A stretch of 39,322 nt of DNA from a virus. Positions 1-39,322 of this stretch are shown here, piece after piece. The first letter of the stretch is position 1, and each line of letters begins with the position of its first letter. Location: IMG/VR virus record IMGVR_UViG_3300022661_000031; one strand, written 5' to 3'. The notes under the pieces are model-generated. The model was not told the DNA's origin. It worked only from the letters and a program-made list of their open reading frames with translations, and did not search any database. A program made the translations under genes and the position numbers.

Positions 1-101
1 GCACAAGTTTTTCAACCTTCAGCTCCTGGACGACGGCGGCCAGGGCGGCGCTGGCAATGGCCAGGGCGGCAACGCCGGATCTGGCAACGGCGGCCAGGCA
101 G
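1..101. repeat. Terminal overlap, identical to 39222..39322
   Basis: Read directly: gcacaagtttttcaacc...ggcggccaggcag is present at both ends. Confidence 0.97.
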
Positions 102-10680: not shown

Positions 10681-11652
10681 ATGCAGATTGACGTAACAAA
10701 CGGCAAACGCTTCACCGAGTACGACGCGCTGGCTGCCGTGGCCAGCGAGGAGGACGTTCTCCTGGTACGACTCGCAGACGGCACAGGCGTCAAGAGGATC
10801 CCCCTCAGCGCCATCAAGGCCTTCATCAACGGAGACCTGACCACGCTGGAGACTGAGGACCAGACCAGCCTGATCGCCGCCATCAATGAAGTCCTCGGCC
10901 TGGCAGGCACCAACGCCGACGACATCAAAGCCCTGAAGGGGCTGACCGCAATGCTCGGCCAGACCGGTGCATCCAGAGCCAACTCCTTCATCTACGAGCA
11001 CAGCCTCGGCACCAGCTTCACCGCCGAGCAGTCCGCCGACATCCGTGCCGGCAAGTTCGAGCTGGTCCGCACCGGCGGCTACTGGACCATCAACGGCCGC
11101 AAATACTGGGCCGCCCATGCAGACTACCGTCTGAACTGCGGCGACACAGCGCTGACCACTCACCATATGCTGGTCATCCCCGACAAGTCCTTCTATAACC
11201 ACGTTATGAACGACGCCAACGACACGACCGGCTCCTACTACGGCAGCAAGATGAAGACCTCCGGCCTGGCTGATGCTCTGGCCACCATCAAGGCCGACTT
11301 CGGCGCGGATCACATCCTGACCCACAGGATCATCCTGCCCAACGCTGTCAGCAACGGCGCCAGCTCCGGCTGGGCGTGGTACGACAGCCAGATCGACCTG
11401 ATGAACGAGAAGATGGTCTACGGCTCCCACGCATGGGGTGGCGGCTCCCAGAACGGCTACGACACCGGCATCGACAAGAGCCAGCTGGCTCTGTTCCAGG
11501 CACGCCCGGACCTGATCACGAACAGAGAGAACTGGTGGCTGAGAGACGTCCAGTCCGCGGCGCCTTTCTGCGGTGTCTCCGGCCACGGCGGTGCCTACTC
11601 CTGGGCCGCCTCGACCTCCATCGGCGTCCGCCCGGCTTTCCTGATCTATTGA
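10681..11652 (+). CDS. DGR target protein 1: tail fibre / receptor-binding protein with a C-terminal variable region
   Basis: 323 aa. The C-terminus WWLRDVQSAAPFCGVSGHGGAYSWAASTSIGVRPAFLIY is encoded by VR1. Confidence 0.85.
   Translation: MQIDVTNGKRFTEYDALAAVASEEDVLLVRLADGTGVKRIPLSAIKAFINGDLTTLETEDQTSLIAAINEVLGLAGTNADDIKALKGLTAMLGQTGASRANSFIYEHSLGTSFTAEQSADIRAGKFELVRTGGYWTINGRKYWAAHADYRLNCGDTALTTHHMLVIPDKSFYNHVMNDANDTTGSYYGSKMKTSGLADALATIKADFGADHILTHRIILPNAVSNGASSGWAWYDSQIDLMNEKMVYGSHAWGGGSQNGYDTGIDKSQLALFQARPDLITNRENWWLRDVQSAAPFCGVSGHGGAYSWAASTSIGVRPAFLIY
11547..11640 (+). repeat. DGR variable region VR1
   Basis: 94 bp, aligns without gaps to TR 12265-12358. 19 mismatches, all at TR adenines. 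Confidence 0.9.
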
Positions 11653-11660
11653 TCAAAAAT

Positions 11661-11681
11661 CCCGGCCCCTTGTGGGCCGGG
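11661..11681 (+). promoter_or_regulatory. GC hairpin downstream of VR1 (candidate DGR target-recognition structure)
   Basis: Stem cccggccc / gggccggg with loop cttgt, starting 21 nt after the VR end. No U-run follows it. Confidence 0.6.
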
Positions 11682-11708: not shown

Positions 11709-12236
11709 GTGTCAGACATCCCTAAAAGTAAACGGGCCCATTCTAATCTGGAAGCGCACCACCAGGCTCTCGCAGTCCGTCGGATGATCTCCGTGGAGCT
11801 GCTCAGCAGCTTCGCCTACAGCGAGAAGAAGCTGGAGGCGGCCATCAAGAAGCAGACCGCGCACATCCAGGACCCGGAGCACAAGAAGGACGTCGCCGAG
11901 GCCATCCGCAGCCTGGAGAACGACTACGCCTGCTGGTTTATCAAGAGACACCGCGACCGAGTGGACGATCTCGCCTGCGCCATCGCTCAGCACATCAGGG
12001 CGGCCAATACCATCTGGCCCTCCTACCGTGTCGAGTACCTGGACAGACGCGACGAGCTCAACCAGGCGCTGAAGTGCTGCAACCAGCTCCAGGACGAGCT
12101 CCAGTACATCGCCGAGGCGCTGCCGGCTGACAAAAACCGGTATATGAACATCGTGCTCGAAGTCGAGAAGCTGTTCAACATGGTGAAGAAGCTCCGGCAG
12201 TCCGACAACCGCTTCCTGAAGCACCTGAAAGATTAA
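11709..12236 (+). CDS. avd: DGR accessory variability determinant (Avd-like helical bundle protein)
   Basis: 175 aa, basic and helical, with a GTG start 10 nt after aaggag. Lies between the target gene and TR, as in canonical DGRs. Confidence 0.6.
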   Translation: MSDIPKSKRAHSNLEAHHQALAVRRMISVELLSSFAYSEKKLEAAIKKQTAHIQDPEHKKDVAEAIRSLENDYACWFIKRHRDRVDDLACAIAQHIRAANTIWPSYRVEYLDRRDELNQALKCCNQLQDELQYIAEALPADKNRYMNIVLEVEKLFNMVKKLRQSDNRFLKHLKD

Positions 12237-12264
12237 CACCCTATAGGGTGGCCTCTGTTTGTGC

Positions 12265-12358
12265 CGTCCAGTCCGCGACGAATTTCTGCAATGTCAACAA
12301 CAACGGCAATGCCAACAACTGGAACGCCTCGAACTCCATCGGCGTCCGCCCGGATTTC
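12265..12358 (+). repeat. DGR template repeat (TR)
   Basis: 94 bp containing 24 adenines, many in AAC codons (would translate ...NFCNVNNNGNANNWNASNS...). It is the A-rich parent of VR1 and VR2. Confidence 0.9.
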
Positions 12359-12496
12359 ACAACCGCACTACATTCTACGGGCAAGCTCCCGCGTGCGGCT
12401 ATGGGAAAGGAGAGGCCATCCGTCCAGCGGGATCAGCTGGTAAATGCTAACCAGGACGCTCCCGGTTACGACCGATGGGGCTATCGCGTGGTTTTT

Positions 12497-13798
12497 ATGA
12501 ATGTATTTTATGATGCAAATTTAATATACGACGCCGGCACCAAGGCCATGAAAAGCAGCAAATTCAAACGCAGCACGCAGATGTTCGAGATGACGCAGCT
12601 CCTCACCACGGCCCACATCCGGCGCGACTTTATGAGCGGAGACTACCGCCCAGACCCCGGGAACAAGTTCCCGATCAACGAGCGCGGGCATCAGCGCTTT
12701 ATCACCAGCAACACCATGGTGGACAAGACCGTCAACCACCTCTTTTGTGACGAGGTCCTGACGCCGGCGATCAGCAAGTACCTGATCTACGACAACGGCG
12801 CCTCGCAGAAGGACAAGGGCGTGGCCTTCCACCGCCGGCGCTTCGAGGCTCACCTGCACCAGTATTACATGGAGCACGGATCCAACGAGGGCTACATCCT
12901 GCTGGTGGACTATTCTGGCTATTATGCCAACATCCCGCACGACAAGTGCATCGAGGTCCTCGACTACTTTCTGGAGCGCGAGGTCGAAGATCCGGAGACG
13001 CTGCTGATCTCTGAGATGCTGACGCGCCTGATCTTCAAGACCTTCGAGCAGGACGTCTCCCGCTTCTCCGACGAGGAGATCGCGGCCATGATGGCCGGCA
13101 AGGTCAACCCGATGCTCAACTGCGGCGTGGATCCGGAGCTGCTGACCGGCGAGAAGATGCTCAGGAAGGGCGTGGACATAGGCTCGCAGCCTTCCCAGAA
13201 CATCGGCATCATCTACCCGTACCGGGTGGACAACTATGCCAAGATCGTCAGAGGCATCAAACACTACGCCCGCTACACCGACGACTTCTATGCGGTCTCA
13301 GACTCCAAGGAGTTCCTGGTGAGCGTGCTGGAAGGCTTCAGGAAGGAGGCGGCAGAGTATGGGCTGATCATCAACGAAAAGAAGACCCGGATCGTGAAGC
13401 TCTCCTCTCAGTTCAGACACCTGCAGGTGTGCTACTCACTGACGGAGTCCGGCCGCCTGATCCGGAAGATCCACCCGAAGAACATCACCCGGGAACGCCG
13501 GAAGCTGAAGGCGTACAAGCGCCTGCTGGACGCCGGCCGGATCGACTACCCAACCGTCGAGAACTCGTTCAAGTCCTGGCTGGGCAGTCACTACAAAATT
13601 ATGTCACACGACCAAATCTACAACATGAGCAGCCTCTACTATGAGCTGTTCGGAAGGAGACCAAAATGGAAAAAAGGACATGGAAGATTACACTGGCTGA
13701 TGGCACATCCCTCGACGGCCTCGACCTCAACGGGAACAACTTCATCAGCTCCACCGCTGTCACCGAGGACACCTTCGCCGGCAAACTCTCCAGCGTGA
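12497..13798 (+). CDS. DGR reverse transcriptase
   Basis: Start MNVFYDANL. Contains the catalytic motif RYTDDFYAV and the DGR-type motif IGSQPSQNIG. Lies immediately downstream of TR. Confidence 0.85.
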   Translation: MNVFYDANLIYDAGTKAMKSSKFKRSTQMFEMTQLLTTAHIRRDFMSGDYRPDPGNKFPINERGHQRFITSNTMVDKTVNHLFCDEVLTPAISKYLIYDNGASQKDKGVAFHRRRFEAHLHQYYMEHGSNEGYILLVDYSGYYANIPHDKCIEVLDYFLEREVEDPETLLISEMLTRLIFKTFEQDVSRFSDEEIAAMMAGKVNPMLNCGVDPELLTGEKMLRKGVDIGSQPSQNIGIIYPYRVDNYAKIVRGIKHYARYTDDFYAVSDSKEFLVSVLEGFRKEAAEYGLIINEKKTRIVKLSSQFRHLQVCYSLTESGRLIRKIHPKNITRERRKLKAYKRLLDAGRIDYPTVENSFKSWLGSHYKIMSHDQIYNMSSLYYELFGRRPKWKKGHGRLHWLMAHPSTASTSTGTTSSAPPLSPRTPSPANSPA

Positions 13799-16468: not shown

Positions 16469-17977
16469 TTATACGGCAATTCTGAGGACGACATAGTCCC
16501 GCAGCACGATGATCTTCGGGGTTCGAGTACCGTCGCGCGGGCTCCACCATTCGGGCCGTACTCGAACACGTGAGTGCGGGCCCTTTTCTCGGATATTGTA
16601 AAATATCAGCGCCTCATCGTTGCGGAGCTCGACTCGGGCGATGAACGTGTCAACCAACCGAGCGCGGAAGTCGTCATCCGTGACGTCTCCGACGCGGAAG
16701 GAGCGCAGCCAGGCCTCGACCACCTCATGGGTGAGTCGGGGCCTTTTTATTTCTGCCCGCTGGATCTCCAGCACCAGCTGCTCCTCCTCTTCCTCCAGGG
16801 CAGCCAAACGAGAGACCAGGCCACGGGCCCCGCCTTCTTCTATCGCGTCCAGCAAGTTCCGCTGGCGCTTTTTATTTGAGTCAAGACGCCGACGCAATCC
16901 CACCACGGGATCGTCGGCGTTTTCCTGTTCCTGGACTTCCAGGATCCGGACGGTCAGCTTCTCGATCATGTCATCGGTCAGCATATCGTTCACCGTGGCC
17001 AGGATGATCGCGTCCTCCAGCTGGTCCTTCGGGAACGGCTTCAGCTCGCAGGCCTTCCCGCGCTTTTTGTCTCCGCACTTGTAATACCGGTACACTTTCC
17101 CCAGCTTCCCGGTGCCGGTCTCTGCATTGATCATCGAGCCGCAATACCCGCAGAACATTTTACAGCTCAGCAAATAGTTCACCTTCGCCCTCCCCGCCGC
17201 ATTGTTACGGCTCGTTTTGAAATGCTGGGCCGCCTCCAAGAAGGTCGCCTGGTCAATGATCGGCTCCACATTCAGCTTCACGTCCTGGATGTAAAACTCG
17301 CCCAGGTATTTGTTATTCCGCAGCATACGATAGACGACCGCATTGGAGACCGGCTTCCCGCGTCTGCCCATGATCCCACGGTCGGCAAACATCTGGACGA
17401 TGTCCCGGAGCTGGCCGCCGGCGATGTGCATCCGGAAGGCCTCCCGGACAGCGGCAGCCTCTCGCTCGTCGACGATGATGTGACGCTCGGCGTCCACCTT
17501 GTAACCGATGGGCAGAGACTGGCCGCAATACTGGCCCTTCTTCGCGGTCTCCTTCATGCCTCGGATGACCTTCTGCCGGAGGTCGGCGGAGTAATACTCG
17601 GCCAGACCTTCCAGAACGCTCTCCAGGATGATCCCCTCCGGGCCCTCCGGGACGCTTTCCTTCGCATACAGCAGTTTGACGCCGGAGCGCTTCAGAGTCA
17701 GCTTGCCGAGGGCGATGTCCTGGCGATCACGGCCGAAGCGGTCGATCTTCCAGACGATGACGCAGTCAAAGCGGCCCTTCTCAGCGTCCCGCAGCATCCG
17801 CTGGAACTCGTCACGGCCGACGACACTCTTGCCGGAGACTTTCCGGTCGGCATACACTTCGATGATGTCGATCCCGTTCTCCTCTGCATAATATTTACAA
17901 TCTGCCACCTGGCCCTCGATGGACTGCTCAGTCTGCCGGGGGCCTGGTGAGTATCTGGCATAAATAACGCCACGCAT
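16469..17977 (-). CDS. int: Large serine recombinase (integrase)
   Basis: 502 aa. N-terminal resolvase domain (GVIYARYS...GQ), recombinase domain, Cys-rich zinc ribbon (CGYCGS...YYKCG) and a C-terminal coiled coil. Confidence 0.9.
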   Translation of the reverse strand: MRGVIYARYSPGPRQTEQSIEGQVADCKYYAEENGIDIIEVYADRKVSGKSVVGRDEFQRMLRDAEKGRFDCVIVWKIDRFGRDRQDIALGKLTLKRSGVKLLYAKESVPEGPEGIILESVLEGLAEYYSADLRQKVIRGMKETAKKGQYCGQSLPIGYKVDAERHIIVDEREAAAVREAFRMHIAGGQLRDIVQMFADRGIMGRRGKPVSNAVVYRMLRNNKYLGEFYIQDVKLNVEPIIDQATFLEAAQHFKTSRNNAAGRAKVNYLLSCKMFCGYCGSMINAETGTGKLGKVYRYYKCGDKKRGKACELKPFPKDQLEDAIILATVNDMLTDDMIEKLTVRILEVQEQENADDPVVGLRRRLDSNKKRQRNLLDAIEEGGARGLVSRLAALEEEEEQLVLEIQRAEIKRPRLTHEVVEAWLRSFRVGDVTDDDFRARLVDTFIARVELRNDEALIFYNIREKGPHSRVRVRPEWWSPRDGTRTPKIIVLRDYVVLRIAV

Positions 17978-18004: not shown

Positions 18005-18349
18005 TTAGATGTGCAGGATCGCTCTGATCGCTGCCTGAGTCTCAGCGCCGGCGTGCCGGTATGCTTCGATCAGGTCGATCTCGGCCAGCGTGACGGCCAG
18101 GAACTTATTGGCAGCGGGATCTGTCTCGTCGCCGGCCGGCTTCTCGATCTTATCGGTGAAGCCCAGCAAGTAGTTCATGTCGACGTGGAAGATCTCAGCC
18201 AGGGCCTCGATCATCTCGAAGCTCGGCTTCCGCTTTCCGTTCTCATACTGGGAAATGGTCATTTTATTCAATCCAACGCGGTCGGCCACGTCCTGCTGGG
18301 ACCAGCCCCGCTCTAATCTTAATGATTTAACAATCTGAGAAAACTCCAT
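18005..18349 (-). CDS. CI-like XRE-family repressor
   Basis: 114 aa starting at MEFSQIVKSLRLERGWSQQDVADRVGLNKMTISQYENGKR, with RBS ggggga. The track's longer start at 18484 would run through the promoter region. Confidence 0.85.
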   Translation of the reverse strand: MEFSQIVKSLRLERGWSQQDVADRVGLNKMTISQYENGKRKPSFEMIEALAEIFHVDMNYLLGFTDKIEKPAGDETDPAANKFLAVTLAEIDLIEAYRHAGAETQAAIRAILHI

Positions 18350-18385
18350 AAATCTGTCCCCCTGAAAAAAATGTTTATTTTCCTC

Positions 18386-18414
18386 TTGACAATTATAAAC
18401 TAAGAGTTTATTAT
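18386..18414 (+). promoter_or_regulatory. Early (lytic) promoter TTGACA-N17-TATTAT
   Basis: -35 at 18386-18391 and -10 at 18409-18414, read directly from the sequence. Confidence 0.7.
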
Positions 18415-18420
18415 AGTCAA
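18392..18420 (-). promoter_or_regulatory. Repressor promoter TTGACT-N17-TATAAT on the minus strand
   Basis: Plus strand reads attata at 18392-18397 and agtcaa at 18415-18420. Mirror image of the lytic promoter. Confidence 0.6.
18396..18410. promoter_or_regulatory. Operator O1, TAAACT-N3-AGTTTA
   Basis: Palindrome centred on 18403, lying inside both promoter spacers. Confidence 0.65.
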
Positions 18421-18422
18421 TG

Positions 18423-18437
18423 TAAACTATGAGTTTA
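18423..18437. promoter_or_regulatory. Operator O2, TAAACT-N3-AGTTTA
   Basis: Same 6-bp arms as O1, 27 bp away centre to centre. Confidence 0.6.
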
Positions 18438-18483
18438 CGCAAGAGAAAAGCAAAGTAAACACCACCGAACAGGAGGACACACA

Positions 18484-19095
18484 ATGAATATTTACAAGAT
18501 CACCTTCACCCGCGAGAACGGCACCCAGGGCGCTGACCACTTCACCGCTGCCACCGAGAAGCAGGCCCGCAAGGACTTCAACGAGTGCTACCGTCACGGC
18601 ACCGGCGTCATCGTCAGCGTCGAGCTCGTCCGTACCGACGCCCAGGCCACCAAGCAGCAGGAGCGCGATGCTCTGGCCAAGATCCGCCAGATCGTCGACA
18701 CCCTCGGCCCTGAGTCCTACCTGGCCACCGCCTTCGAGGGCTGCTTCGACCTCGCTGCTGAGAACATCGAGAACGACTGGGGCTGCTCCATGGCCGACCG
18801 CGTCCGCCGCGCTGAGAAGCGCGCCGCAGAGCTGGAGGACAAGCTGGCCGAGTCCGTGAAGGACTACGAGGCCGCTCATGCTGCCGCTCATGCGGTCGCT
18901 GAGGAGAAGGACGCCGAGATCGCCAAGCTGAAGGCCCGCATCCAGGAGCTGCTGGAAGACAGCAAGCGCGGCTGCGAGTCCATCGGCGACCTGGCCAACC
19001 GTGCCGGAGAGGCCCAGCGCCGAGCTGAGGCAGCCGAGGCCGAGGTCATCCGCCTGAAGGCCAAGCTCTACGACTACATGACAAGGGAGGGCTGA
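18484..19095 (+). CDS. Hypothetical early protein with a C-terminal coiled coil
   Basis: 203 aa with RBS aggagg. First gene of the rightward operon. Confidence 0.7.
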   Translation: MNIYKITFTRENGTQGADHFTAATEKQARKDFNECYRHGTGVIVSVELVRTDAQATKQQERDALAKIRQIVDTLGPESYLATAFEGCFDLAAENIENDWGCSMADRVRRAEKRAAELEDKLAESVKDYEAAHAAAHAVAEEKDAEIAKLKARIQELLEDSKRGCESIGDLANRAGEAQRRAEAAEAEVIRLKAKLYDYMTREG

Positions 19096-23071: not shown

Positions 23072-23620
23072 ATGTCTACTACCAAAGTTATCACCGGAAA
23101 AGTTCGTTTCAGCTATGTGAACATCTTCAAGAGCCGCGCCTTCCAGGCTGGCCAGGACGCCAAGTACAGCGTGTGCCTGCTGATCCCTAAAGAGGACAAG
23201 GCCACCATCAAGAAGATCAAGGCAGCCATCGACGCAGCTGTCCAGGACGGCATCAGCTCCAAGTGGGGCGGCAAGAAGCCTGCCAACCTGAAGCTGCCCC
23301 TGCGCGACGGCGACGCCGAACGTGCCGACGAGGCTCCTGAGTACGAGGGGATGTACTTCCTCAACTGCAACAGCACCCAGAAGCCCGGCATCGTGGACAA
23401 GGATCTGAACGAGATCCTGGATCCCGACGAGGTCTACTCCGGCTGCTGGGGCCGTGCCTCCATCAACTTCTTCCCCTTCAACACCAACGGCAACAAGGGC
23501 ATCGGCGTCGGCCTGAATAACATCCAGAAGCTGAAGGACGACGACCGCCTGGGCGCTGCCCGTGCTTCCGCCGAGTCCGACTTCGGCGGCGACGACTTCG
23601 AGGACGACGAGGACTTCTAA
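23072..23620 (+). CDS. DUF2815-type phage ssDNA-binding protein
   Basis: N-terminus VITGKVRFSYVNIF and acidic C-terminal tail DDFEDDEDF. Lies between the nuclease and polymerase genes. Confidence 0.7.
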   Translation: MSTTKVITGKVRFSYVNIFKSRAFQAGQDAKYSVCLLIPKEDKATIKKIKAAIDAAVQDGISSKWGGKKPANLKLPLRDGDAERADEAPEYEGMYFLNCNSTQKPGIVDKDLNEILDPDEVYSGCWGRASINFFPFNTNGNKGIGVGLNNIQKLKDDDRLGAARASAESDFGGDDFEDDEDF

Positions 23621-23633
23621 GGAGGACATACAG

Positions 23634-25607
23634 ATGCACCGAGTTATGGGCGTGGATATAGAAACCTATAGCTCCGTGGATCTGACCGAGGCGGGCGTCT
23701 ACGCCTACGTGGAGGCGCCTGACTTCGACATCCTGCTCATCTCGTACATCTTCGACGACTGGGGCGAGGACGACGTCAAGACCATCGACTGCTTCGATGC
23801 TGATCCTGACATGATGGCCGAGTTCTGCGAGGCCCTCCTCGATCCCCAGATCGTCAAGACCGCCTTCAACGCGAACTTCGAGCGCACCTGTCTGGCCAAG
23901 TGGCTCCAGAAGCCCATGCCGCCAGAGGAGTGGCGCTGCACAATGGTCAAGGCGCTGACGCTGGGCCTGCCGGGCAATCTGGCAGGCGCCGGCGAGGCGC
24001 TGGGCCTTCCTCCCGAGAAGCTAAAGGACCCCCAGGGCAAGGCCCTGATCCAGTTCTTCTCGAAGCCGTGCAAGCCGACCCGGACCAACGGCCAGAGGAC
24101 GCGCAACCTCCCGCAGCATGACCCGGCCAAGTGGCAGCTCTACAAGGGCTACAACCGGCAGGACGTCGTGACCGAGCAGGAGATCCTACGGAAGCTATCC
24201 ATCTACAAGACACCGGAGTCAGAGCAGGAGCTCTGGGCTCTGGACCAACACATGAACGACAACGGCGTGGCGCTCGACATCCCCATGGTCGAGAAGATCG
24301 TCGAGTATGACACCCGGCGCCGGCAGGAGCTCCAGGAGGAAGCCCAGGAGCTCACCGGACTGAAAAACCCGAACAGCCTGGCCCAGCTGAAGCGCTGGCT
24401 CGCAGAGCAGGGCGTGGAGATGACCAGCGTCACCAAGGACACCATCGCCGAGGCGCTGCGAGATCCGGAGCTCCCAGACGTCGTCCGGAGAGTGCTGGAG
24501 ATCCGCACCGCCCTGGGCAAGACCAGCGTGGCCAAGTACAGCACGATGCTGGTGGCACACTGCCAGGATCACCGGCTGCGAGGCATCCTTCAGTTCTACG
24601 GCGCCAACCGATCCGGGCGCTGGGCCGGCCGCCTGGTGCAGACGCACAACCTGGCCAAGAACACGCTGCCGGATCTGGCTCTGGCCCGCGAGCTGGCGGC
24701 CGAGGGAGACTTCGAGACCATGGGCACCCTGTTCGGCGAGACGGCCTTCGTCTTCTCCGAGCTGATCCGGACGGCCTTCATCCCATCCGAGGGCTGCCGC
24801 TTCATCGTCTCCGACTTCTCCGCCATCGAGGCGCGAGTCCTGGCATGGCTCGCCGGCGAGGAGTGGGTCCTGGAAGCCTTCCGCAACGGCAAGGACATCT
24901 ACTGCGAGACCGCCTCCATGATGTACCACGTGCCCGTGGAAAAGCACGGAGCCAACAGCCACCTCCGCCAGAAGGGCAAGGTCGCCGTGCTGGCCTGCGG
25001 CTACCAGGGCGGCGTCGGTGCCATGAAGCGCATGGACAAGGGCGGCAGCATACCGGAGGACGAGCTCCAGAGCGTCGTGGACCAGTGGCGGCAGGCTAAC
25101 TCCAACTCCGTGAAGCTCTGGAGGACCTGCGAGCTGGCAGCGCGGACAGCCATCGAGGAGCACCGCACCGTCCGGCTGAAGAACGGCCTGGCCTTCGGCT
25201 ACATCAACGGCAACCTGTTCATCAAGCTGCCGGGCGGCCGGAAGCTCTGCTACTGGAACACCCGGCTGAAGCTCGACCCCCGCGACGGCCGCGAGCACAT
25301 TGTCTACATGGGCGTCAACCAGGAGACGAAACAGTGGGGCGAGACCGAGACCTACGGCGGCAAGCTGGTCGAGAACATCGTCCAGGCCACCGCCAGAGAC
25401 TGCCTGGCCATCTCTATGCAGAGGGTCGCAGCTCTGGGCTACAACATCGTCATGCACGTCCATGACGAGATCATCGTGGACTGTCCCATCGAGGACACCG
25501 GCGCCATGGAGAGGATCAACGCCTGCATGGCTGAGCCTATCCCCTGGGCGCCTGGTCTGCCTCTGAAGGGCGACGGCTACGAGACACCATTCTACATGAA
25601 AGACTAA
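23634..25607 (+). CDS. Family A DNA polymerase with a 3'-5' exonuclease domain
   Basis: ATG at 23634 after ggagga. Contains GVDIETYS (Exo I motif), RQKGKVAVLACGYQGG and VHDEIIVDC (motif C). Confidence 0.9.
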   Translation: MHRVMGVDIETYSSVDLTEAGVYAYVEAPDFDILLISYIFDDWGEDDVKTIDCFDADPDMMAEFCEALLDPQIVKTAFNANFERTCLAKWLQKPMPPEEWRCTMVKALTLGLPGNLAGAGEALGLPPEKLKDPQGKALIQFFSKPCKPTRTNGQRTRNLPQHDPAKWQLYKGYNRQDVVTEQEILRKLSIYKTPESEQELWALDQHMNDNGVALDIPMVEKIVEYDTRRRQELQEEAQELTGLKNPNSLAQLKRWLAEQGVEMTSVTKDTIAEALRDPELPDVVRRVLEIRTALGKTSVAKYSTMLVAHCQDHRLRGILQFYGANRSGRWAGRLVQTHNLAKNTLPDLALARELAAEGDFETMGTLFGETAFVFSELIRTAFIPSEGCRFIVSDFSAIEARVLAWLAGEEWVLEAFRNGKDIYCETASMMYHVPVEKHGANSHLRQKGKVAVLACGYQGGVGAMKRMDKGGSIPEDELQSVVDQWRQANSNSVKLWRTCELAARTAIEEHRTVRLKNGLAFGYINGNLFIKLPGGRKLCYWNTRLKLDPRDGREHIVYMGVNQETKQWGETETYGGKLVENIVQATARDCLAISMQRVAALGYNIVMHVHDEIIVDCPIEDTGAMERINACMAEPIPWAPGLPLKGDGYETPFYMKD

Positions 25608-25620
25608 GGAGGACACACAA

Positions 25621-26178
25621 ATGAAAATCACCCGCACCATGACCATCGACACCAACGAGATCCAGATCGGCGACCGCATCGAGGTCGGCCATTATACCGC
25701 CACCTGCCAGAAGCTGGTCGGCGAGGGCCTGGCCCTGTTCCTGCTGGATCAGTACCTCGACAAGCCCATGCAGATGAACAGAAAGAACACCAACGCCGGC
25801 GGCTACGACGGCAGCGATCTCCGCAAGGACCTGAACACCGGCAAGATCCTCGACGAGTTCGCGCCCCTGGAGCTGGTGCCCTTCGAGAACGGCGACCTGC
25901 TCCGCCTGCCCTTCTATGGCGAGATGTTCGGGCACGACGACTGGTACAACTCCGGCGCCGTGGAGCCTGACAACTGCGAGCAGTGGCCTCTGATGAAGGA
26001 ACGCGCCAACCGCATCGCCGAACGCAAGGGCGAGAGCTACGAGTGGGGATGGCTCCAGAACAAGTACGTCCGGTCCGCGACGAATTTCTGCATTGTCCAC
26101 CTCGACGGCTATGCCCGCTACTGGGCCGCCTCGAACTCCATCGGCGTCCGCCCGGCTTTCCTGATCAAATTATCATAA
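25621..26178 (+). CDS. DGR target protein 2: stand-alone putative ligand-binding domain with a C-terminal variable region
   Basis: 185 aa. The C-terminus WGWLQNKYVRSATNFCIVHLDGYARYWAASNSIGVRPAFLIKLS is encoded by VR2. Confidence 0.85.
   Translation: MKITRTMTIDTNEIQIGDRIEVGHYTATCQKLVGEGLALFLLDQYLDKPMQMNRKNTNAGGYDGSDLRKDLNTGKILDEFAPLELVPFENGDLLRLPFYGEMFGHDDWYNSGAVEPDNCEQWPLMKERANRIAERKGESYEWGWLQNKYVRSATNFCIVHLDGYARYWAASNSIGVRPAFLIKLS
26067..26160 (+). repeat. DGR variable region VR2
   Basis: 94 bp, aligns without gaps to TR. 13 mismatches, all at TR adenines. Confidence 0.9.
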
Positions 26179-26182
26179 ATCC

Positions 26183-26201
26183 CGGGGGCCTCGTGCCCCC
26201 G
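26183..26201 (+). promoter_or_regulatory. GC hairpin downstream of VR2
   Basis: Stem cgggggc / gcccccg with loop ctcgt, at nearly the same offset from the VR as the VR1 hairpin (23 vs 21 nt). Confidence 0.6.
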
Positions 26202-26234: not shown

Positions 26235-26723
26235 ATGGAGCCTATCACTATATGCTGGGAGACCGGCTACATGACCATCAACCCGGACGCCTTTTTCCCA
26301 ACAAGTGCAGCCAGGATCCGGAAGCTCCTCCGGGTGGTCGCCCTGGACTTTGAGCATCAGGACGACATCCGGATGCAGCTGGCCGGGGCCTGCGAGAGCC
26401 GCGCCCAGGAGATCCTGGACGGCCGCAAGAGCCTCGCCAACGAGGCAGTAAACCACCACCAAAAAGCGGCGGACCTGGAGCCGCAGATCGAGACGGCCAA
26501 GCGCCGGATCACTACCCTCCGGGCCTGCATCAAAGAGCAGCCGAAGAAGGCCCGACAGCTGGGCTACCCTGAACGGCTGCACGAGGAGCGGGAGCAGCTG
26601 AAGAAGCTGACCGCCGAGCGCTCCGGAGCCCTCTCAGCCTTCCGGAAGAAAAAGCGCGAGTTCGAGGCCGCTGAGGCCACGGCTGAGAAATTAAGACAGA
26701 ACGCGGAGGTGCTGAGACCATGA
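26235..26723 (+). CDS. Hypothetical coiled-coil protein
   Basis: 162 aa with RBS aaggagga. Confidence 0.6.
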   Translation: MEPITICWETGYMTINPDAFFPTSAARIRKLLRVVALDFEHQDDIRMQLAGACESRAQEILDGRKSLANEAVNHHQKAADLEPQIETAKRRITTLRACIKEQPKKARQLGYPERLHEEREQLKKLTAERSGALSAFRKKKREFEAAEATAEKLRQNAEVLRP

Positions 26724-29155
26724 CCAACACAGCGGAAAAACTCACCCTGCCCCTGTTCATGGTCAAGCACAACGGCGACCTCCTGATCTCGACCGGCCGC
26801 AGCCGCTTCGAGACCTCCTGGAAAAATAAGACCATGAGCTGGGCGGCTCTCCTGAATAAGCTCTCCCGCTCCATGGAGACCACGGAGACCCACGCCGAGT
26901 ACATGAAGATGAGCAAGGAGCAGCAGGACAAGATCAAGGACATCGGCGGCTTCGTCGGCGGTCATCTGAGGGATGGCCGCCGCAAGACCGGCTACGTCAC
27001 GGCCCGCCAGCTGCTCACCCTCGACCTGGACTTCCCTCCGGCCGAGTTCTGGGACAACATCATCGACAACCTGGAGATCGACAACGCCCTGGCGGTCTAC
27101 TCCACACATAAGCACACCAAGGCGAAGCCCCGCTACCGTCTGATCATGCCCCTCGACAGAGAGGTCACGCCGGACGAGTACGAGGCCATCGCCCGCAAGA
27201 TCGCCGAGAAGATCGGCATCGACTACTTCGACGACTCCACCTTCCAGCCGACCCGTCTGATGTACTGGCCGAGCCATAGCGTGGACGTCGAGCCCTTCTT
27301 CCAATACTACGACGCCCCCTTCCTGGCGGCCGACTCCATCCTGGCCGAGTACCCGGACTGGACCGACACCAGCTACTGGCCGGAGTCGTCCCGCATGGTG
27401 GGCATCAGAAAAAGAGACGCCGACCGGCAGGGCGATCCTCGTGAGAAAAAGCACATCGTCGGTATTTTCTGCCGCACCTACAGCATCACCGAGGCCATCG
27501 CCAAGTTCCTACCGGACGTCTACACCCAGACGGCCAAAGAGGACCGATACACCTACGCAGCCGGCTCAACTGCTGCCGGCCTCGTGGTCTATGACGGCGA
27601 CGTCTTCGCCTATTCCAACCATAGCACCGACCCGGCCGGCGGCCAGCTCTCCAACGCCTTCGACCTGGTCCGCATCCACAAGTTCGGACATCTGGACGAG
27701 GGCAAGGAAGGCAAGAGCGGCAAAGACCTCCCGAGCTTCAAGGCCATGGCCGACATGGCCAGAGACGACGAGGGCTGCAAACGAACAGCCGCGAGCGAAC
27801 AAGCGGCGAACGCTCGCCAAGAGTTCGCTCAGCTGGAGGAGTCCCCGGAGGACTGGGCCCTTCTGCTGGAGCGCAACGCCAAGATGGAGGTCTGCCCGAC
27901 CCTCGTCAATGCCGTGCTGATCGTGCAGCATGATGAAGGCCTCCAGAACATCGCCTACAACGATCTGAAGCAGGCCATCGAAAAGACCGGGCCGCTGCCA
28001 TGGCGAAATGACGGCGGCACCTGGAGAGACGCCGACGACGCGCAGCTCCTGGCGTACATGAACAGAGTCTACCAGTCCCGCTTCACCAACTCGGCCGTCG
28101 TCACGGCACTGACCAAGGTGGCCGACGACCGGCACTTCAATCCCCTGCGGGAATACATCCAGGCGCTGCCGGAGTGGGACGGCGTGGCCAGAGTGGACAC
28201 GCTGCTGATCGACTACCTGGGCGCCGAGGACACCGCCTACACCCGAGCCGTGACCCGCAAGACTCTGGTCGGAGCTGTCCAGCGCGTGCTGCAGCCCGGG
28301 TGCAAGTTCGACACCATGCTCGTGCTCGACGGCCCTCCGGGCATCGGCAAGAGCACCCTGCTCCGGAAGCTGGGCGGCGAATGGTTTGACGACTCCCTCA
28401 GCCTGGCCGACACCAGGGACAAGACCGCAGCCGAAAAGCTCCAGGGCAAGTGGATCATGGAGATCGGCGAGATGCAGGGCACCCGCAAGGCCGACATCGA
28501 CATCGTCAAGGGCTTCCTCAGCCGTCAGGACGACGCCTACCGTGCAGCATACGGCCGCGTGGTGCAGAGCCACCCGAGGACCTGCATCATCTGCGGCACT
28601 ACTAACAGCACCGACGGCTTCCTGAGAGATACTACCGGCAACCGGCGCTTCTGGCCCGTGCCCGTGAAGAAGGGCCGCCTCAGCGTCTGGGAGATGACCG
28701 AGGAAACCCGCGCCCAGATCTGGGCCGAGGCCATGATCTTCGTGGCTGAGGGCGAGACGACCTACCTGGACTACGAGCTGGAGCGCGAGGCAGCGAGGAT
28801 GCAGCTGAACGCCCTGGAGTTCGACGAGCGCGAGGGCGAGGTGGCCGAGTATCTGGACACCCTGCTGCCGGCGGACTGGTACAACTGGGATCTGAGTCAG
28901 CGCGTGGACTACTTCCAGCAGCGTGACGTCCTGAGCCCTACCATCGAGGGCACGATGCAGCGCACGCGAGTCAGCACCAAGGAGATCTACTGCGAGTGCC
29001 TGGGACTTCCGTGGGCCCGTTTTACGCGGCAGGATGGCGACCGGATCAAGACCATGCTGCTGAGGATCGGCGGCTGGAAAAGCGGCAGCAAGCTGGAAAA
29101 GGTGCCAGGCTATGGCCCGCAGCGTTGTTACCACCGGAGCACGGGTAACGATTAA
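26720..29155 (+). CDS. Primase-polymerase / VirE (VapE)-family P-loop helicase fusion
   Basis: 811 aa. Walker A motif LDGPPGIGKST, with an N-terminal prim-pol-like region (LTLDLDF...YRLIMPL). Confidence 0.8.
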   Translation: MTNTAEKLTLPLFMVKHNGDLLISTGRSRFETSWKNKTMSWAALLNKLSRSMETTETHAEYMKMSKEQQDKIKDIGGFVGGHLRDGRRKTGYVTARQLLTLDLDFPPAEFWDNIIDNLEIDNALAVYSTHKHTKAKPRYRLIMPLDREVTPDEYEAIARKIAEKIGIDYFDDSTFQPTRLMYWPSHSVDVEPFFQYYDAPFLAADSILAEYPDWTDTSYWPESSRMVGIRKRDADRQGDPREKKHIVGIFCRTYSITEAIAKFLPDVYTQTAKEDRYTYAAGSTAAGLVVYDGDVFAYSNHSTDPAGGQLSNAFDLVRIHKFGHLDEGKEGKSGKDLPSFKAMADMARDDEGCKRTAASEQAANARQEFAQLEESPEDWALLLERNAKMEVCPTLVNAVLIVQHDEGLQNIAYNDLKQAIEKTGPLPWRNDGGTWRDADDAQLLAYMNRVYQSRFTNSAVVTALTKVADDRHFNPLREYIQALPEWDGVARVDTLLIDYLGAEDTAYTRAVTRKTLVGAVQRVLQPGCKFDTMLVLDGPPGIGKSTLLRKLGGEWFDDSLSLADTRDKTAAEKLQGKWIMEIGEMQGTRKADIDIVKGFLSRQDDAYRAAYGRVVQSHPRTCIICGTTNSTDGFLRDTTGNRRFWPVPVKKGRLSVWEMTEETRAQIWAEAMIFVAEGETTYLDYELEREAARMQLNALEFDEREGEVAEYLDTLLPADWYNWDLSQRVDYFQQRDVLSPTIEGTMQRTRVSTKEIYCECLGLPWARFTRQDGDRIKTMLLRIGGWKSGSKLEKVPGYGPQRCYHRSTGND

Positions 29156-33987: not shown

Positions 33988-34015
33988 GAGAGCAGGCAGT
34001 GGCCTGCTCTCTTTC
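33988..34015 (+). terminator. Hairpin (weak terminator or RNA element) immediately upstream of terS
   Basis: 10-bp stem gagagcaggc / gcctgctctc with loop agtg, followed by only tttc. Confidence 0.5.
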
Positions 34016-34049: not shown

Positions 34050-34739
34050 ATGCCCAAGGCAAGGAACTCGAAGGTAGACGAGGCCCTTGCACTCTACCAG
34101 CAGGGCCTCAAACTAATTGAAATAGCACGGAAGCTGGACATCCCGGAGGGAACTGTCCGACGATGGAAGTGCACATATAAATGGGATAGCGAGCGCTCGC
34201 AACCTGAAAAACCGAACGCTCGCAAACGAGGCGGCCAGCCCGGCAACAGAAACAGGGCCGCACCAAAGGGCAACAAGAGGGCCGAGAAGTTCGGCTTCTA
34301 CTCCAAGTATTTACCGGAGGAGACGCTGGAGATCTTCGGAGAGATCCAGGACGCCGATCCGCTGGATCTGCTCTGGGACCAGATCCGCTTCTCCTACACG
34401 GCCATCCTCCGGGCCCAGAAGATCGCCTACGTCAAGGACGCCGAAGACAAGACCATCGAGAAGATCGAGGACCGCAGCGGCGCCGAGTCCTGGGGCGAGA
34501 AGTGGGAAGTGCAGCAGGCCTGGGACAAGCAGGCCAACTTTATGAAGGCCCAGGCCCGGGCGATGGACACGCTCCGGAGCCTGATCAAGCAGTACGACGA
34601 GATGCTGCACAATGACTGGGAGGCAGCCACCGAGGAACAGAAGGCCCGTGTGCAGCTGCTGAAGTCCCGGATCAATGACGGCGCGGATCAGGTCGGAAAG
34701 GTGGTAATCATCAATGACACAAACGACCCGCATCAGTGA
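34050..34739 (+). CDS. terS: Terminase small subunit
   Basis: 229 aa with an N-terminal HTH (GLKLIEIARKLDIPEGTVRRWK). Upstream of terL. Confidence 0.8.
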   Translation: MPKARNSKVDEALALYQQGLKLIEIARKLDIPEGTVRRWKCTYKWDSERSQPEKPNARKRGGQPGNRNRAAPKGNKRAEKFGFYSKYLPEETLEIFGEIQDADPLDLLWDQIRFSYTAILRAQKIAYVKDAEDKTIEKIEDRSGAESWGEKWEVQQAWDKQANFMKAQARAMDTLRSLIKQYDEMLHNDWEAATEEQKARVQLLKSRINDGADQVGKVVIINDTNDPHQ

Positions 34740-39219: not shown

Positions 39220-39322
39220 ATGCACAAGTTTTTCAACCTTCAGCTCCTGGACGACGGCGGCCAGGGCGGCGCTGGCAATGGCCAGGGCGGCAACGCCGGA
39301 TCTGGCAACGGCGGCCAGGCAG
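39220..39322 (+). CDS. Scaffolding protein, 5' part (continues at nt 2 after circular closure)
   Basis: ATG at 39220 preceded by the RBS ggagga. N-terminus is MHKFFNLQLLDDGG, and the frame is continuous with 2..625. Confidence 0.8.
   Translation, partial: MHKFFNLQLLDDGGQGGAGNGQGGNAGSGNGGQA
39222..39322. repeat. Terminal overlap, identical to 1..101
   Basis: Same 101-nt string as the window start. Confidence 0.97.

What the first reader, a model, noticed from the sequence alone, without database searches (positions are those of the whole stretch)
25621..26201. Second, remote DGR variable region in a stand-alone gene inside the replication module
A 94-bp copy of the template repeat (VR2, 26067-26160) forms the 3' end of a 185-aa ORF between the family-A DNA polymerase and the primase/helicase genes, about 13.7 kb from TR. 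It differs from TR at 13 positions. All 13 are TR adenines and there are no indels. The substitution pattern differs from VR1: TR encodes NFCNVNNNGNANNWNASNS, VR1 encodes PFCGVSGHGGAYSWAASTS and VR2 encodes NFCIVHLDGYARYWAASNS. VR2 keeps the same 3' flank and GC hairpin as VR1, so it looks like a live target rather than a relic. Phage DGR targets are canonically tail-fibre or receptor-binding proteins. This one lacks the ~110-aa N-terminal virion-attachment region of target 1 and has no hydrophobic signal sequence. It carries the early-gene RBS AAGGAGGACACACAA and sits in the early/replication operon. A hypervariable binding domain co-expressed with replication genes suggests a non-virion role, such as host factor capture, anti-defence or superinfection control, or else a soluble auxiliary adhesin. 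I do not recall either role being established for phage DGRs.
Basis: partly seen in the sequence, partly recalled or inferred. Interest (0 to 1): 0.9.

Follow-up and report, generated by a model that had tools for sequence, protein, structure and literature searches.

The report
Second, distant DGR target gene in phage
A gut-bacterium phage uses one mutagenic retroelement to keep rewriting two genes, a tail-region gene and a small binding-protein gene among its DNA-replication genes; the second target is real and active, the same design is already published for related gut phages, and what the small protein does is still unknown.

Summary
VR2 (26067-26160) is a gap-free 94-nt copy of the template repeat (TR, 12265-12358). 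All 13 mismatches fall on TR adenines (P about 8e-10). VR2 ends a 185-aa ORF between the family-A polymerase and a 162-aa ORF plus primase/helicase.

VR2 is an active target. Across 17 close sequences (window plus 16 relatives), TR-adenine positions are 39% identical, against 92-95% elsewhere in the gene. Each VR2 copies its own TR's private non-adenine changes (54/54). The protein scaffold is under purifying selection (dN/dS about 0.31).

The arrangement is not new. A homolog, Roseburia phage Shimadzu orf43, is a published second target shown experimentally to diversify. Toutatisvirus, Lelie/CP11 and Quimbyvirus are further precedents, and Quimbyvirus includes the "non-structural target" idea. 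Wu et al. (2018) noted many prophage DGRs with one adjacent and one non-adjacent target.

What I add is a pattern. Homologs sit in early/replication regions of at least eight phage backgrounds. In 42 distant loci the nearest marker was replication/early in 34 and structural in none. The family lacks export signals.

Function is untested. An intracellular binder is my leading guess (about 0.4); an auxiliary virion adhesin is not excluded. Verdict: new member of a known kind, moderate interest.

The parts
25621..26178 (+). Target-2 gene: 185-aa stand-alone DUF6273 protein (21 kDa, pI 5.3), no export signal
   Evidence: ORF. PF19789 scores 27.9 bits (gathering threshold 23.5), and phrog_21980 matches full length at E 4.6e-36. 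The AF2 model has pTM 0.78, and its BFVD matches are DUF6273 proteins. Scaffold dN/dS is 0.31 and the ORF is intact in all 18 sequences compared, window included.
25606..25620 (+). Shine-Dalgarno region AAGGAGGACACACAA, 13 nt after the PolA stop; there is no room for a separate promoter
26067..26160 (+). VR2, variable repeat (codons 149-180 of target 2)
   Evidence: 13 of 13 mismatches to the TR fall on TR adenines. In 17 close sequences (window plus 16 relatives), column entropy is 1.48 bits at TR-A columns and 0.11 at non-A columns. Each VR2 follows its own TR at 54 of 54 diagnostic non-A sites.
26139..26166 (+). Invariant GC-rich 3' segment (CATCGGCGTCCGCCCGG) plus the VR-specific IMH-like end (CTTTCCTGATC). 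Position 26156 is C in both VRs and A in the TR.
   Evidence: TR position 90 is invariant C in all VR2 copies
26183..26201 (+). GC hairpin downstream of VR2 (7-bp stem, loop CTCGT); not followed by a T-run
   Evidence: z -2.35. Analogous hairpins with different stem sequences follow the VRs of Fontainebleau, Shimadzu and L102. The role is assigned by analogy with BPP-1 (PMC3240598).
12265..12358 (+). Template repeat (TR): 24 adenines, ten AAY codons. Its 3' end ATTTCACAACC is IMH*-like.
   Evidence: TR adenines are invariant across the 20 related TRs analysed. The theoretical repertoire is 3.7e13 peptides.
12497..13798 (+). DGR reverse transcriptase. The ORF is open from 12248 and reads through the TR, so the true start is uncertain; candidate Met codons lie at 12401 and 12497.
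   Evidence: PF00078 and phrog_1423; motifs IGSQPSQ and YTDD
11709..12236 (+). Accessory ORF in the position where Avd normally lies (175 aa)
   Evidence: Assigned by position only. No Pfam or PHROG hit. No BLASTP similarity to Toutatis Avd, and E 0.04 to Shimadzu Avd. 54% identical to the syntenic Fontainebleau ORF.
10681..11652 (+). Target-1 gene (323 aa), last gene of the tail module
   Evidence: It resembles target 2 only over the C-terminal 63 aa.
11547..11640 (+). VR1
   Evidence: 19 of 19 mismatches at TR adenines. In relatives, entropy is 1.53 bits at TR-A columns and 0.12 at non-A columns.
11661..11681 (+). GC hairpin downstream of VR1 (8-bp stem, loop TTGTG)
   Evidence: z -4.46
23562..25607 (+). 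Family-A DNA polymerase, immediately upstream of target 2
   Evidence: The PolA-to-T2 adjacency is conserved in 20 close loci and 6 distant ones.
26235..26723 (+). Conserved 162-aa ORF of unknown function between target 2 and the primase/helicase
26720..29155 (+). VapE-type primase/helicase
18386..18414 (+). Early promoter-like site (11 of 12 consensus matches), divergent from the repressor-side site
   Evidence: consensus match only; repressor 18005-18484(-) and serine integrase 16469-17977(-)
33988..34011 (+). The only strong + strand terminator-like site between the early promoter and terS; it marks the early/late boundary
   Evidence: consensus match only; terS at 34050-34739

Best explanation
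The 25621-26178 gene is an active second target of the phage's single diversity-generating retroelement.

How diversification most likely works (mechanism by analogy with BPP-1):
- TR RNA (12265-12358) is reverse-transcribed by the RT (12497-13798), with misincorporation opposite template adenines.
- The cDNA replaces any genomic segment that has TR homology, the VR-specific IMH-like end and a downstream hairpin.
- VR1 and VR2 both carry these signals, so the element acts in trans on VR2, 13.8 kb away. This rewrites 13 codons (about 3.7e13 possible peptides) at the C-terminus of the protein.

What the protein is: a 21-kDa single-domain DUF6273 protein. DUF6273 is reported in the literature to be C-type-lectin-like. 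It has no export signal and is most likely co-transcribed with PolA in the early/replication unit.

What it does (inferred, not shown): it acts as a diversifiable binding module inside the infected cell. Its likely partner is a variable host or competing-element factor. It is not the primary receptor-binding protein. It is accessory, not essential.
For: Shown here:
- A-only mismatch spectrum, with exactly three repeat copies in the window.
- Population hypervariability. Mean pairwise identity is 39% at TR-A sites, against 94.9% at non-A VR sites and 91.8% upstream. Pairs that are 99.8% identical upstream are only 33% identical at TR-A sites.
- VR2 is diversified as strongly as VR1 (1.48 versus 1.53 bits), while TR adenines never vary.
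- Each VR2 tracks its own TR at 54 of 54 diagnostic non-A sites, including private changes in single contigs.
- The same layout occurs in the cultured relative Acutalibacter phage Fontainebleau.
- The RT has the DGR signature IGSQPSQ plus YTDD.
- Hairpins after VRs are conserved in shape but not in sequence.
- The scaffold is under purifying selection (dN/dS 0.31).

From the literature:
- IMH plus hairpin suffice to target a heterologous gene (PMC3240598).
- The Shimadzu homolog's VR2 diversifies experimentally (10.1101/575076).

For early, non-virion expression (circumstantial):
- A 13-nt gap after PolA. No + strand terminator-like site lies between about 18.4 kb and 33,988.
- Gene position is conserved in all 20 close loci.
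- Homologs sit in the early/replication regions of Shimadzu, Toutatis, Dulem virus 34, L018, L022, L026 and L036.
- In 42 distant loci the nearest marker is replication/early in 34 and structural in 0.
- Only 1 of 132 family representatives has a hydrophobic N-terminus or TM segment.
- In Shimadzu, VR1 alleles were selected during lytic sweeps but VR2 alleles were not.

Inference: a freely released soluble protein would lose the link between variant gene and benefit, so diversification should pay only if the protein acts in the cell or stays on the virion.
Against: - There is no direct evidence on expression timing, localisation or ligand.
- Promoter and terminator calls are consensus matches only.
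- Gene position does not prove a non-structural role.
- Published authors read homologous or similar small DUF6273 targets as receptor-binding proteins.
- DUF6273 domains also occur at the ends of large tail-type proteins (BFVD hits of 661-867 aa).
- The C-type-lectin fold was not confirmed here. Foldseek against the PDB found nothing (best E 0.85), and the VR segment of the model has pLDDT below 50.
- The marker survey uses a biased, partly self-derived marker set, and many of its prophage loci are related to one another.
- Population evidence comes from assembled consensus contigs, not from reads.
- The accessory ORF is not recognisably Avd.
Confidence: 0.45

Rival explanations
1. Target 2 is a virion-associated auxiliary adhesin or second receptor-binding module, encoded outside the structural module. 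It would dock non-covalently onto the tail or capsid and widen the range of surfaces the particle can bind. That would make it an ordinary second fibre-type target.
For: - The canonical role of phage DGR targets is receptor binding.
- Authors of the Toutatis and tentaclin papers favour receptor binding for DUF6273 proteins.
- DUF6273 also occurs at the ends of large tail-type proteins.
- Virion attachment would preserve the link between variant gene and benefit.
- VR1 and VR2 share one TR, so both present chemically similar binding loops.
Against: - No N-terminal anchoring domain; the whole 185 aa is one domain.
- The gene is in the early/replication block here, and a structural gene is the nearest marker in none of 42 distant loci.
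- In Shimadzu, VR2 alleles were not selected during lytic sweeps, whereas VR1 alleles were.
Confidence: 0.3
2. Target 2 is a soluble lectin released at lysis. It would bind mucus, glycans, immunoglobulin or decoy receptors in the gut, as a shared good for the progeny phage.
For: - No export signal, so release would need lysis.
- Gut phages are known to carry adhesive Ig-like or C-type-lectin decorations.
Against: - A freely diffusing product breaks the link between the variant gene and its benefit. That makes maintenance of an active VR with purifying selection on the scaffold hard to explain (inference).
- Early-region placement is not needed for this role.
Confidence: 0.1
3. VR2 is an inactive relic: a decayed or frozen copy of the repeat that is no longer diversified.
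For: A single genome cannot distinguish live from frozen. Some prophages keep target genes without a DGR, and L102 has an unmutated 'naive' VR.
Against: - 23 of 24 TR-A positions are polymorphic with 2-4 alleles among near-identical relatives.
- There are no non-A mismatches inside the homology region, and private TR changes are copied into the cognate VR2.
- The IMH-like end and hairpin are intact, and the ORF is intact in all relatives.
Confidence: 0.02
4. The VR2/TR/VR1 similarity reflects ordinary paralogy or recombination between two C-terminal domains, without retroelement involvement.
For: Targets 1 and 2 share a DUF6273-type C-terminus.
Against: - Nucleotide identity is confined to the TR-homologous 94 nt plus the recognition elements.
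- The mismatch spectrum is exclusively at TR adenines (P 8e-10).
- The TR is non-coding in function and sits next to an RT with DGR motifs.
- The proteins are unrelated upstream of the last 63 aa.
Confidence: 0.01

Closest known systems
Roseburia phage Shimadzu orf43 / VR2 (Cornuault et al., bioRxiv 10.1101/575076; ISME J 2020)
   Same: - Homologous protein (31.7% identity over 82% of the query, E 2e-6).
- VR at the C-terminus with A-only mismatches.
- About 13.9 kb from a TR that also serves a tail-gene VR1.
- Lies among early genes (MTase, Erf, SSB, replication initiator, DnaC).
- Followed by AATCCC plus a GC hairpin.
- Both Shimadzu VRs were shown to diversify experimentally.
   Different: - Shimadzu is a myovirus of a Lachnospiraceae host with a different replication module.
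- orf43 is 209 aa with an N-terminal extension.
- The window phage is a Fontainebleau-like siphovirus in which the gene follows PolA.
Faecalibacterium Toutatisvirus gp24 and the 'small DGR targets' of phages Lelie and CP11 (bioRxiv 10.1101/2024.10.15.618418; PMC11792537)
   Same: - A small DUF6273 second target far from the TR (about 17.5 kb).
- A core gene of the genus.
- Located in the early region, before the replication initiator and antiterminator Q.
- A-only mismatches verified here.
   Different: - Only the VR segment aligns with the target-2 profile (hhalign probability 46%), so it is a different DUF6273 subfamily.
- The adjacent target there is a Hoc-like 'tentaclin', not a tail-module protein.
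Quimbyvirus distal DGR target (Benler et al. 2021, PMC8008677)
   Same: [quoted passage not shown] The authors proposed a role in phage-host conflict.
   Different: - A Bacteroides phage.
- The target lies on the opposite strand, in a defence/counter-defence island and not in the replication module.
- Homology to target 2 was not tested here.
Bordetella phage BPP-1 Mtd and its DGR (prototype; target rules in Guo et al. 2011, PMC3240598)
   Same: - Adenine-specific TR-to-VR transfer.
- VR at the C-terminus.
- IMH versus IMH* distinction, with a downstream hairpin whose shape matters but not its sequence.
- AAY-codon design that avoids stop codons.
   Different: - Mtd is a trimeric tail-fibre tip protein encoded next to the cassette, and it is the only target.
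- No fold similarity of target 2 to solved structures was detected here.
Tentaclins / two-target DGRs of phages nd4 and nd12 (Baykov et al. 2023, PMC10743442)
   Same: Two DUF6273 targets served by one TR in gut phages. DUF6273 was interpreted there as C-type-lectin-like.
   Different: - Both targets lie within the cassette.
- The tentaclin carries its VR near the N-terminus and has Ig-like anchoring domains.
- Target 2 here is a bare domain 13.8 kb away.

Membership tests
Diversity-generating retroelement (DGR) system | Reverse transcriptase of the DGR type (RVT_1 with the [LIVM]GxxxSQ motif and YxDD) | tested here: met
   PF00078 at E 2.7e-11 and phrog_1423 at E 7e-47; IGSQPSQ at residue 311 and YTDD at residue 343 of ORF 12248-13798
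Diversity-generating retroelement (DGR) system | A TR/VR pair that differs only at TR adenines | tested here: met
   VR2 13 of 13 and VR1 19 of 19 mismatches at TR adenines, no indels. The same holds in 8 paired relatives (Fontainebleau and 7 contigs).
Diversity-generating retroelement (DGR) system | TR adjacent to the RT gene | tested here: met
   The TR ends at 12358. Candidate RT start codons lie at 12401 and 12497.
Diversity-generating retroelement (DGR) system | A VR-specific 3' recognition element (IMH) that differs from the TR (IMH*), preceded by a GC-rich stretch | tested here: met
   VR1 and VR2 both read CGGCTTTCCTGATC where the TR reads CGGATTTCACAACC, after a shared GGCGTCCGCCCGG. 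TR position 90 is C in every VR2 and A in every TR. The function itself was not assayed.
Diversity-generating retroelement (DGR) system | Hairpin/cruciform downstream of the VR | tested here: met
   Predicted stems of 7 and 8 bp lie 20-22 nt after VR2 and VR1, and none at the TR. Stems are conserved in shape, not sequence, in Fontainebleau, Shimadzu and L102. The requirement is known from BPP-1.
Diversity-generating retroelement (DGR) system | Accessory protein (Avd or HRDC type) | tested here: inconclusive
   The 175-aa ORF 11709-12236 occupies the Avd position but has no Pfam or PHROG hit. It shows no significant similarity to Toutatis or Shimadzu Avd.
Diversity-generating retroelement (DGR) system | Ongoing mutagenic homing into this VR | tested here: met
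   Comparative evidence only: hypervariability confined to TR-A columns and transfer of each TR's private changes to its own VR2. A direct assay comparing RT-positive and RT-negative phage is not possible with these tools.
DUF6273 (PF19789) / phrog_21980 protein family | Profile match above the curated threshold | tested here: met
   PF19789 at 27.9 bits against a gathering score of 23.5 (C-terminal 60 aa). phrog_21980 at E 4.6e-36 over residues 1-181. The top BFVD structural matches are DUF6273 proteins at probability 1.0 and TM 0.54-0.59.
C-type-lectin-fold DGR variable proteins (Mtd/TvpA type) | Fold similarity to solved C-type-lectin variable proteins | tested here: inconclusive
C-type-lectin-fold DGR variable proteins (Mtd/TvpA type) | VR at the C-terminal end of the domain, with an invariant scaffold around the variable residues | tested here: met
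   The VR covers residues 149-180 of 185. Invariant F/C/V/G/A/W/A/S/GVRPAF positions are interleaved with variable ones.
Phage tail fibre / receptor-binding protein | Encoded in the structural (late) module | tested here: not met
   The gene lies between PolA and the primase/helicase, 7.8 kb upstream of the terminator-like site that precedes terS. A structural gene is the nearest marker in 0 of 42 distant loci.
Phage tail fibre / receptor-binding protein | N-terminal virion-attachment domain | tested here: not met
   A single 185-aa domain. 90 of the best 150 family representatives are 160-215 aa.
Phage tail fibre / receptor-binding protein | Physical presence in the virion | not testable with these tools
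   Needs virion proteomics. None was found in the Shimadzu preprint.
Shimadzu-orf43-type non-adjacent phage DGR targets | Homology to orf43, plus a VR served by a TR that also serves a tail-module target | tested here: met
   tblastn 31.7% identity, E 2e-6. The three-copy layouts were verified in both phages.

The most novel reading that the evidence does not exclude
The phrog_21980/DUF6273 stand-alone proteins would form a widespread class of early-expressed, cytoplasmic, retroelement-diversified binders. In effect they would be phage 'intrabodies', made alongside the replication machinery to capture a rapidly varying host-defence or rival-element protein. DGR hypervariation in gut Clostridia phages would then serve intracellular conflict as well as adsorption. 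The repeated PolA-to-target adjacency could point to a replication-linked ligand.
Probability: 0.3. Interest if true: 0.8.

Novelty: new member of a known kind. Interest (0 to 1): 0.4.

Why it matters
The window adds a clean, well-populated example of a phage DGR that serves two targets, one at the tail module and one among replication genes. A cultured relative exists: Fontainebleau in Acutalibacter muris.

The architecture itself is published. Large DGR surveys use RT-centred windows and say they miss non-adjacent targets, so this class is probably under-counted.

The one point I did not find stated in the papers I read is the pattern. Homologous small targets sit in early/replication regions across many unrelated phage backbones, and the family lacks export signals.

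If these proteins act inside the cell, targeted hypermutation in phages would extend beyond receptor recognition. Two tractable phage-host pairs (Fontainebleau/A. muris and Shimadzu/R. intestinalis) make that directly testable.

Tried and rejected
- **Fold search.** Foldseek of the AF2 model against the PDB gave no meaningful match (best E 0.85). A profile search of PDB sequences also gave none. I therefore could not confirm the C-type-lectin fold myself.
- **Toutatis gp24.** hhalign of the target-2 profile against Toutatis gp24 aligned only the VR segment, so I do not call them the same subfamily.
- **Accessory ORF.** Comparisons with known Avd proteins gave nothing significant.
- **Neighbouring ORF.** Pfam and PHROGs say nothing about the conserved 162-aa neighbour.
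- **Shimadzu paper.** The journal version is not held, so I used the preprint.
- **TRs of distant homologs.** I looked for cognate TRs within the held 10-kb flanks. This succeeded only for L037. Elsewhere the second copy was a paralogous VR, or nothing was found, so I cannot say all distant homologs are DGR targets.
- **Moron hypothesis.** I considered that the gene is a moron with its own promoter and terminator. I rejected this because only 13 nt separate it from PolA and the downstream hairpin lacks a T-run.
- **Assembly chimaera.** I considered this and rejected it, because the synteny recurs in 19 independent contigs and an isolate genome.
- **Superinfection control in the lysogen.** I judged this less likely, because the gene lies in the repressor-controlled lytic early unit. 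This is inference.
Full report
**1. What the window is**

The window is a complete phage genome of about 39.2 kb. Its ends overlap: bases 1-101 are identical to 39222-39322. Nearly all genes are on the + strand, in this order:
- head and tail genes, tape measure and tail proteins;
- target 1 (10681-11652), an accessory ORF, the TR, the RT, and the lysis genes;
- a serine integrase and a repressor on the - strand;
- a long + strand block: exonuclease, Gp2.5-like SSB, family-A polymerase, the gene in question, a 162-aa ORF, a VapE-type primase/helicase, an endonuclease, an SNF2 helicase, an HNH protein, a phrog_36 regulator and a methyltransferase;
- terS, terL and portal.

Consensus scans place divergent promoter-like sites at about 18.39-18.42 kb. 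The only strong + strand terminator-like site (33988-34011) lies just before terS. These are pattern matches, not evidence of function.

The closest cultured relative is Acutalibacter phage Fontainebleau (ON453893). It is 79% identical over the replication block and syntenic throughout.

**2.

A TR-derived pattern with every A replaced by N matches exactly three places (VR1, TR, VR2), where none is expected by chance. In ungapped register, VR2 (26067-26160) differs from the TR (12265-12358) at 13 positions. All 13 are among the TR's 24 adenines (P = 8.3e-10). VR1 differs at 19 of 19 adenine positions.

The repeats share a codon phase, and the quoted peptides are correct. The TR carries ten AAY codons plus CAG, ACG and ATC. 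That gives about 3.7e13 possible peptides and no way to create a stop codon.

Both VRs end with CGGCTTTCCTGATC, where the TR has CGGATTTCACAACC. Both are followed 20-22 nt later by a GC hairpin with a different stem sequence, and the TR has none.

One omission: a conserved 162-aa ORF lies between target 2 and the primase/helicase.

**3. VR2 is a live target**

IMG/VR holds 35 loci encoding relatives of the protein. I compared the window with 16 full-length close relatives, without gaps:

| Region of the gene | Mean pairwise identity | Mean column entropy |
|---|---|---|
| 446 nt upstream of the VR | 91.8% | 0.17 bits |
| VR columns where the TR is not A | 94.9% | 0.11 bits |
| VR columns where the TR is A | 39.0% | 1.48 bits |

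- Contigs that are 99.8% identical upstream are only 33% identical at TR-A columns.
- 23 of the 24 TR-A columns carry 2-4 alleles.
- The exception, position 90, is C in every VR and A in every TR. It belongs to the recognition element, not to the mutagenised stretch.

A TR-specific pattern recovered 41 TR loci. For Fontainebleau and seven contigs I could pair each TR with its own VR2; an eighth contig's VR2 end was not recovered. Inside the homology, every mismatch is at a TR adenine. At the six non-adenine positions where TRs differ between lineages (10, 19, 28, 40, 43, 49), each VR2 carries its own TR's base. This holds at 54 of 54 sites, including changes private to a single contig. It requires TR-to-VR2 information transfer after these phages diverged.

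VR1 is equally diversified in the same population (1.53 bits at TR-A columns, 0.12 at others), while TR adenines never vary. The 5' edge of homology differs between lineages (TR position 1 or position 6). Wu et al. describe this for multi-target DGRs.

The rest of the gene is intact in all 18 sequences compared (the window included) and is under purifying selection, with a median dN/dS of 0.31.

**4. The retroelement**

- The RT matches RVT_1 and phrog_1423 and has the DGR motifs IGSQPSQ and YTDD.
- The ORF between target 1 and the TR sits where Avd normally does. It has no detectable similarity to Avd proteins, so that component is unconfirmed.
- In BPP-1, IMH plus the hairpin are sufficient to direct the machinery to a foreign gene. 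Stem shape matters there, not stem sequence (PMC3240598).
- Hairpins of 6-8 GC pairs with 5-6-nt loops follow the VRs in this window, in Fontainebleau, in Shimadzu and in a Lachnospiraceae prophage. Each has a different stem sequence.

Action in trans on VR2 therefore fits the known mechanism. That mechanism is inferred by analogy; it was not assayed.

**5. The protein**

- It matches DUF6273 above Pfam's threshold and phrog_21980 over its full length.
- An exhaustive profile search finds 909 clusters at 50% identity (433 at E <= 1e-10). Of the best 150, 90 are 160-215 aa. Only 1 of the 132 longer than 160 aa has a hydrophobic N-terminus or a TM-like segment.
- Prophage copies occur in Lachnospiraceae, Oscillospiraceae and other gut Clostridia.
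- Targets 1 and 2 resemble each other only over the last 63 residues.
- The AF2 model (pTM 0.78) is confident, apart from short loops, everywhere except the hypervariable segment. It matches predicted DUF6273 proteins of phages but no solved structure.

I therefore cannot confirm a C-type-lectin fold myself. Two papers assign DUF6273 to that fold.

**6. Where this family sits**

- In all 19 close contigs and in Fontainebleau, the order is PolA, target 2, 162-aa ORF, primase/helicase.
- In more distant backgrounds the homolog follows a Pol/primase fusion (L026), a primase and MTase (L022), or a helicase with ParA downstream (L018).
- In L027 and L033 it precedes a phrog_36-like regulator and terL.
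- In many Lachnospiraceae prophages it lies in arrays of DUF6353 paralogs, 5-7 kb upstream of a large primase-helicase.
- L037 shows that such a distant homolog (45% identity) is again a second target, with its TR about 8 kb upstream.
- In annotated phages, Shimadzu orf43 lies between an MTase and Erf/SSB/replication-initiator genes. The Dulem virus 34 homolog lies between an MTase and Rep. Toutatis gp24 lies before the replication initiator and antiterminator Q, and I verified its A-only match to the Toutatis TR.

In a marker survey of 42 distant loci, the nearest recognisable marker was a replication/early gene in 34, a packaging, structural or lysis gene in none, and nothing in 8. Six loci repeat the PolA-to-target adjacency, with gaps of 14-238 nt. 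Two caveats apply: the marker set is small and partly self-derived, and many of the loci are related to one another.

**7. What is already known**

- Wu et al. (2018) reported that many phage-associated DGRs have one adjacent and one non-adjacent target within the same prophage, and that the smallest targets are bare C-type-lectin folds.
- Cornuault et al. described Shimadzu VR2 in orf43 and showed both VRs diversify in culture and in mice. VR1 alleles were selected during lytic sweeps, while VR2 alleles were all different. The authors concluded that the VR2 gene is less essential.
- Egorov and Atkinson, and the Faecalibacterium prophage study, describe small DUF6273 second targets of unknown function.
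- Benler et al. (2021) described a Quimbyvirus DGR with a distal, probably non-structural target and proposed a role in phage-host conflict.
- Large surveys centred on the RT state that they miss non-adjacent targets.
- The paper that named Fontainebleau does not mention its DGR.

**8. Interpretation**

It is shown that this is an active second target. It is likely that the gene is transcribed with the early/replication genes and that the product stays cytoplasmic until lysis. Its function is inferred only.

A diversifying gene must itself reap the benefit of its variant product. The protein should therefore act either in the infected cell or on the virion, and a freely released lectin is the least likely option. 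Three things tilt me toward an intracellular accessory binder (about 0.4):
- consistent early-region placement;
- the absence of any anchoring domain;
- the lack of allele selection for the Shimadzu homolog during lytic sweeps.

An auxiliary virion adhesin remains a serious rival (about 0.3). Virion proteomics on Fontainebleau or Shimadzu would decide between them.

**9. Verdict**

The claim of novelty is not: this is a new member of a published kind. The recurring early/replication placement of the family is a modest new generalisation and a testable lead. Interest is moderate (0.4).

Noticed in passing
window 1-101 and 39222-39322: The two 101-nt ends are identical. The window is therefore a complete, circularly closed or terminally redundant genome with a unit length of 39,221 bp.
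   Followed up: partly
L102 9998-10555 (Lachnospiraceae bacterium 45-P1 prophage), versus L102 about 7571: A target-2 homolog carries a 'naive' VR with its AAC/AAT codons intact. It has A at 17 of 20 mismatches to a diversified paralogous VR 2.9 kb upstream. It could be an unmutated homing product or a never-diversified target; it still has the VR-type 3' end and hairpin.
   Followed up: partly
L084, L092, L093, L095, L097, L099, L101, L104, L107, L032, L028 (within 0.6-2.9 kb of the match): Many Lachnospiraceae prophages carry two small VR-bearing DUF6273 genes close together. Where the neighbours were annotated (L024, L032, L036, L037), such genes are interleaved with repeated DUF6353 (phrog_2152) paralogs plus phrog_10740 and phrog_4079 genes. 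This is an unexplained multi-target array of unknown function.
   Followed up: partly
L029 8318-9085: A microbial-type poly(ADP-ribose) glycohydrolase gene (PF10021) lies 0.9 kb upstream of a target-2 homolog, next to repressor-type regulators. This may be a counter-defence neighbourhood.
   Followed up: no
window 26235-26723: A 162-aa ORF always follows target 2 in this phage clade. It is 94-99% identical in close relatives and 44% in Fontainebleau. It overlaps the primase/helicase start by 4 nt and matches no Pfam or PHROG family.
   Followed up: partly
window 12248-12400; L111 (NC_047915) 49048-49200: The TR lies in frame inside the long ORF that runs into the RT. In FP_Toutatis the translated TR is annotated as a 'DUF6273 domain-containing protein' (gp80), which is an annotation artefact.
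   Followed up: partly
window 11709-12236: The accessory ORF at the Avd position has no detectable similarity to Avd or to any Pfam or PHROG family. It may be a divergent or different accessory factor.
   Followed up: partly
window 26190-26194, 11669-11673; L001, L002, L102 VR flanks: The loops of the VR-flanking hairpins are pyrimidine/G-rich pentamers or hexamers (CTCGT, TTGTG, CTTGC, CTTGT, TATGTG, CCCGC), and the stems are preceded by AATCCC or AATCTC. In BPP-1 the loop is sequence-dependent, so this may be a lineage-specific recognition motif.
   Followed up: no
window 5058-7051 (tape-measure gene 4991-7660): The tape-measure gene contains internal direct repeats, with copies 33-132 nt apart within the arrays (repeat families D9 and D18).
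   Followed up: no
L003-L008 and L001, versus the window, at VR2 positions 1-5: The 5' edge of TR homology in VR2 differs between sub-lineages. It starts at TR position 1 in the window and at position 6 in others. This fits homology-governed 5' cDNA integration.
   Followed up: partly
L007 6582-6792: One relative has about 200 extra nucleotides between the PolA stop and the target-2 start, where the other close relatives have about 16 (13 in the window).
   Followed up: no
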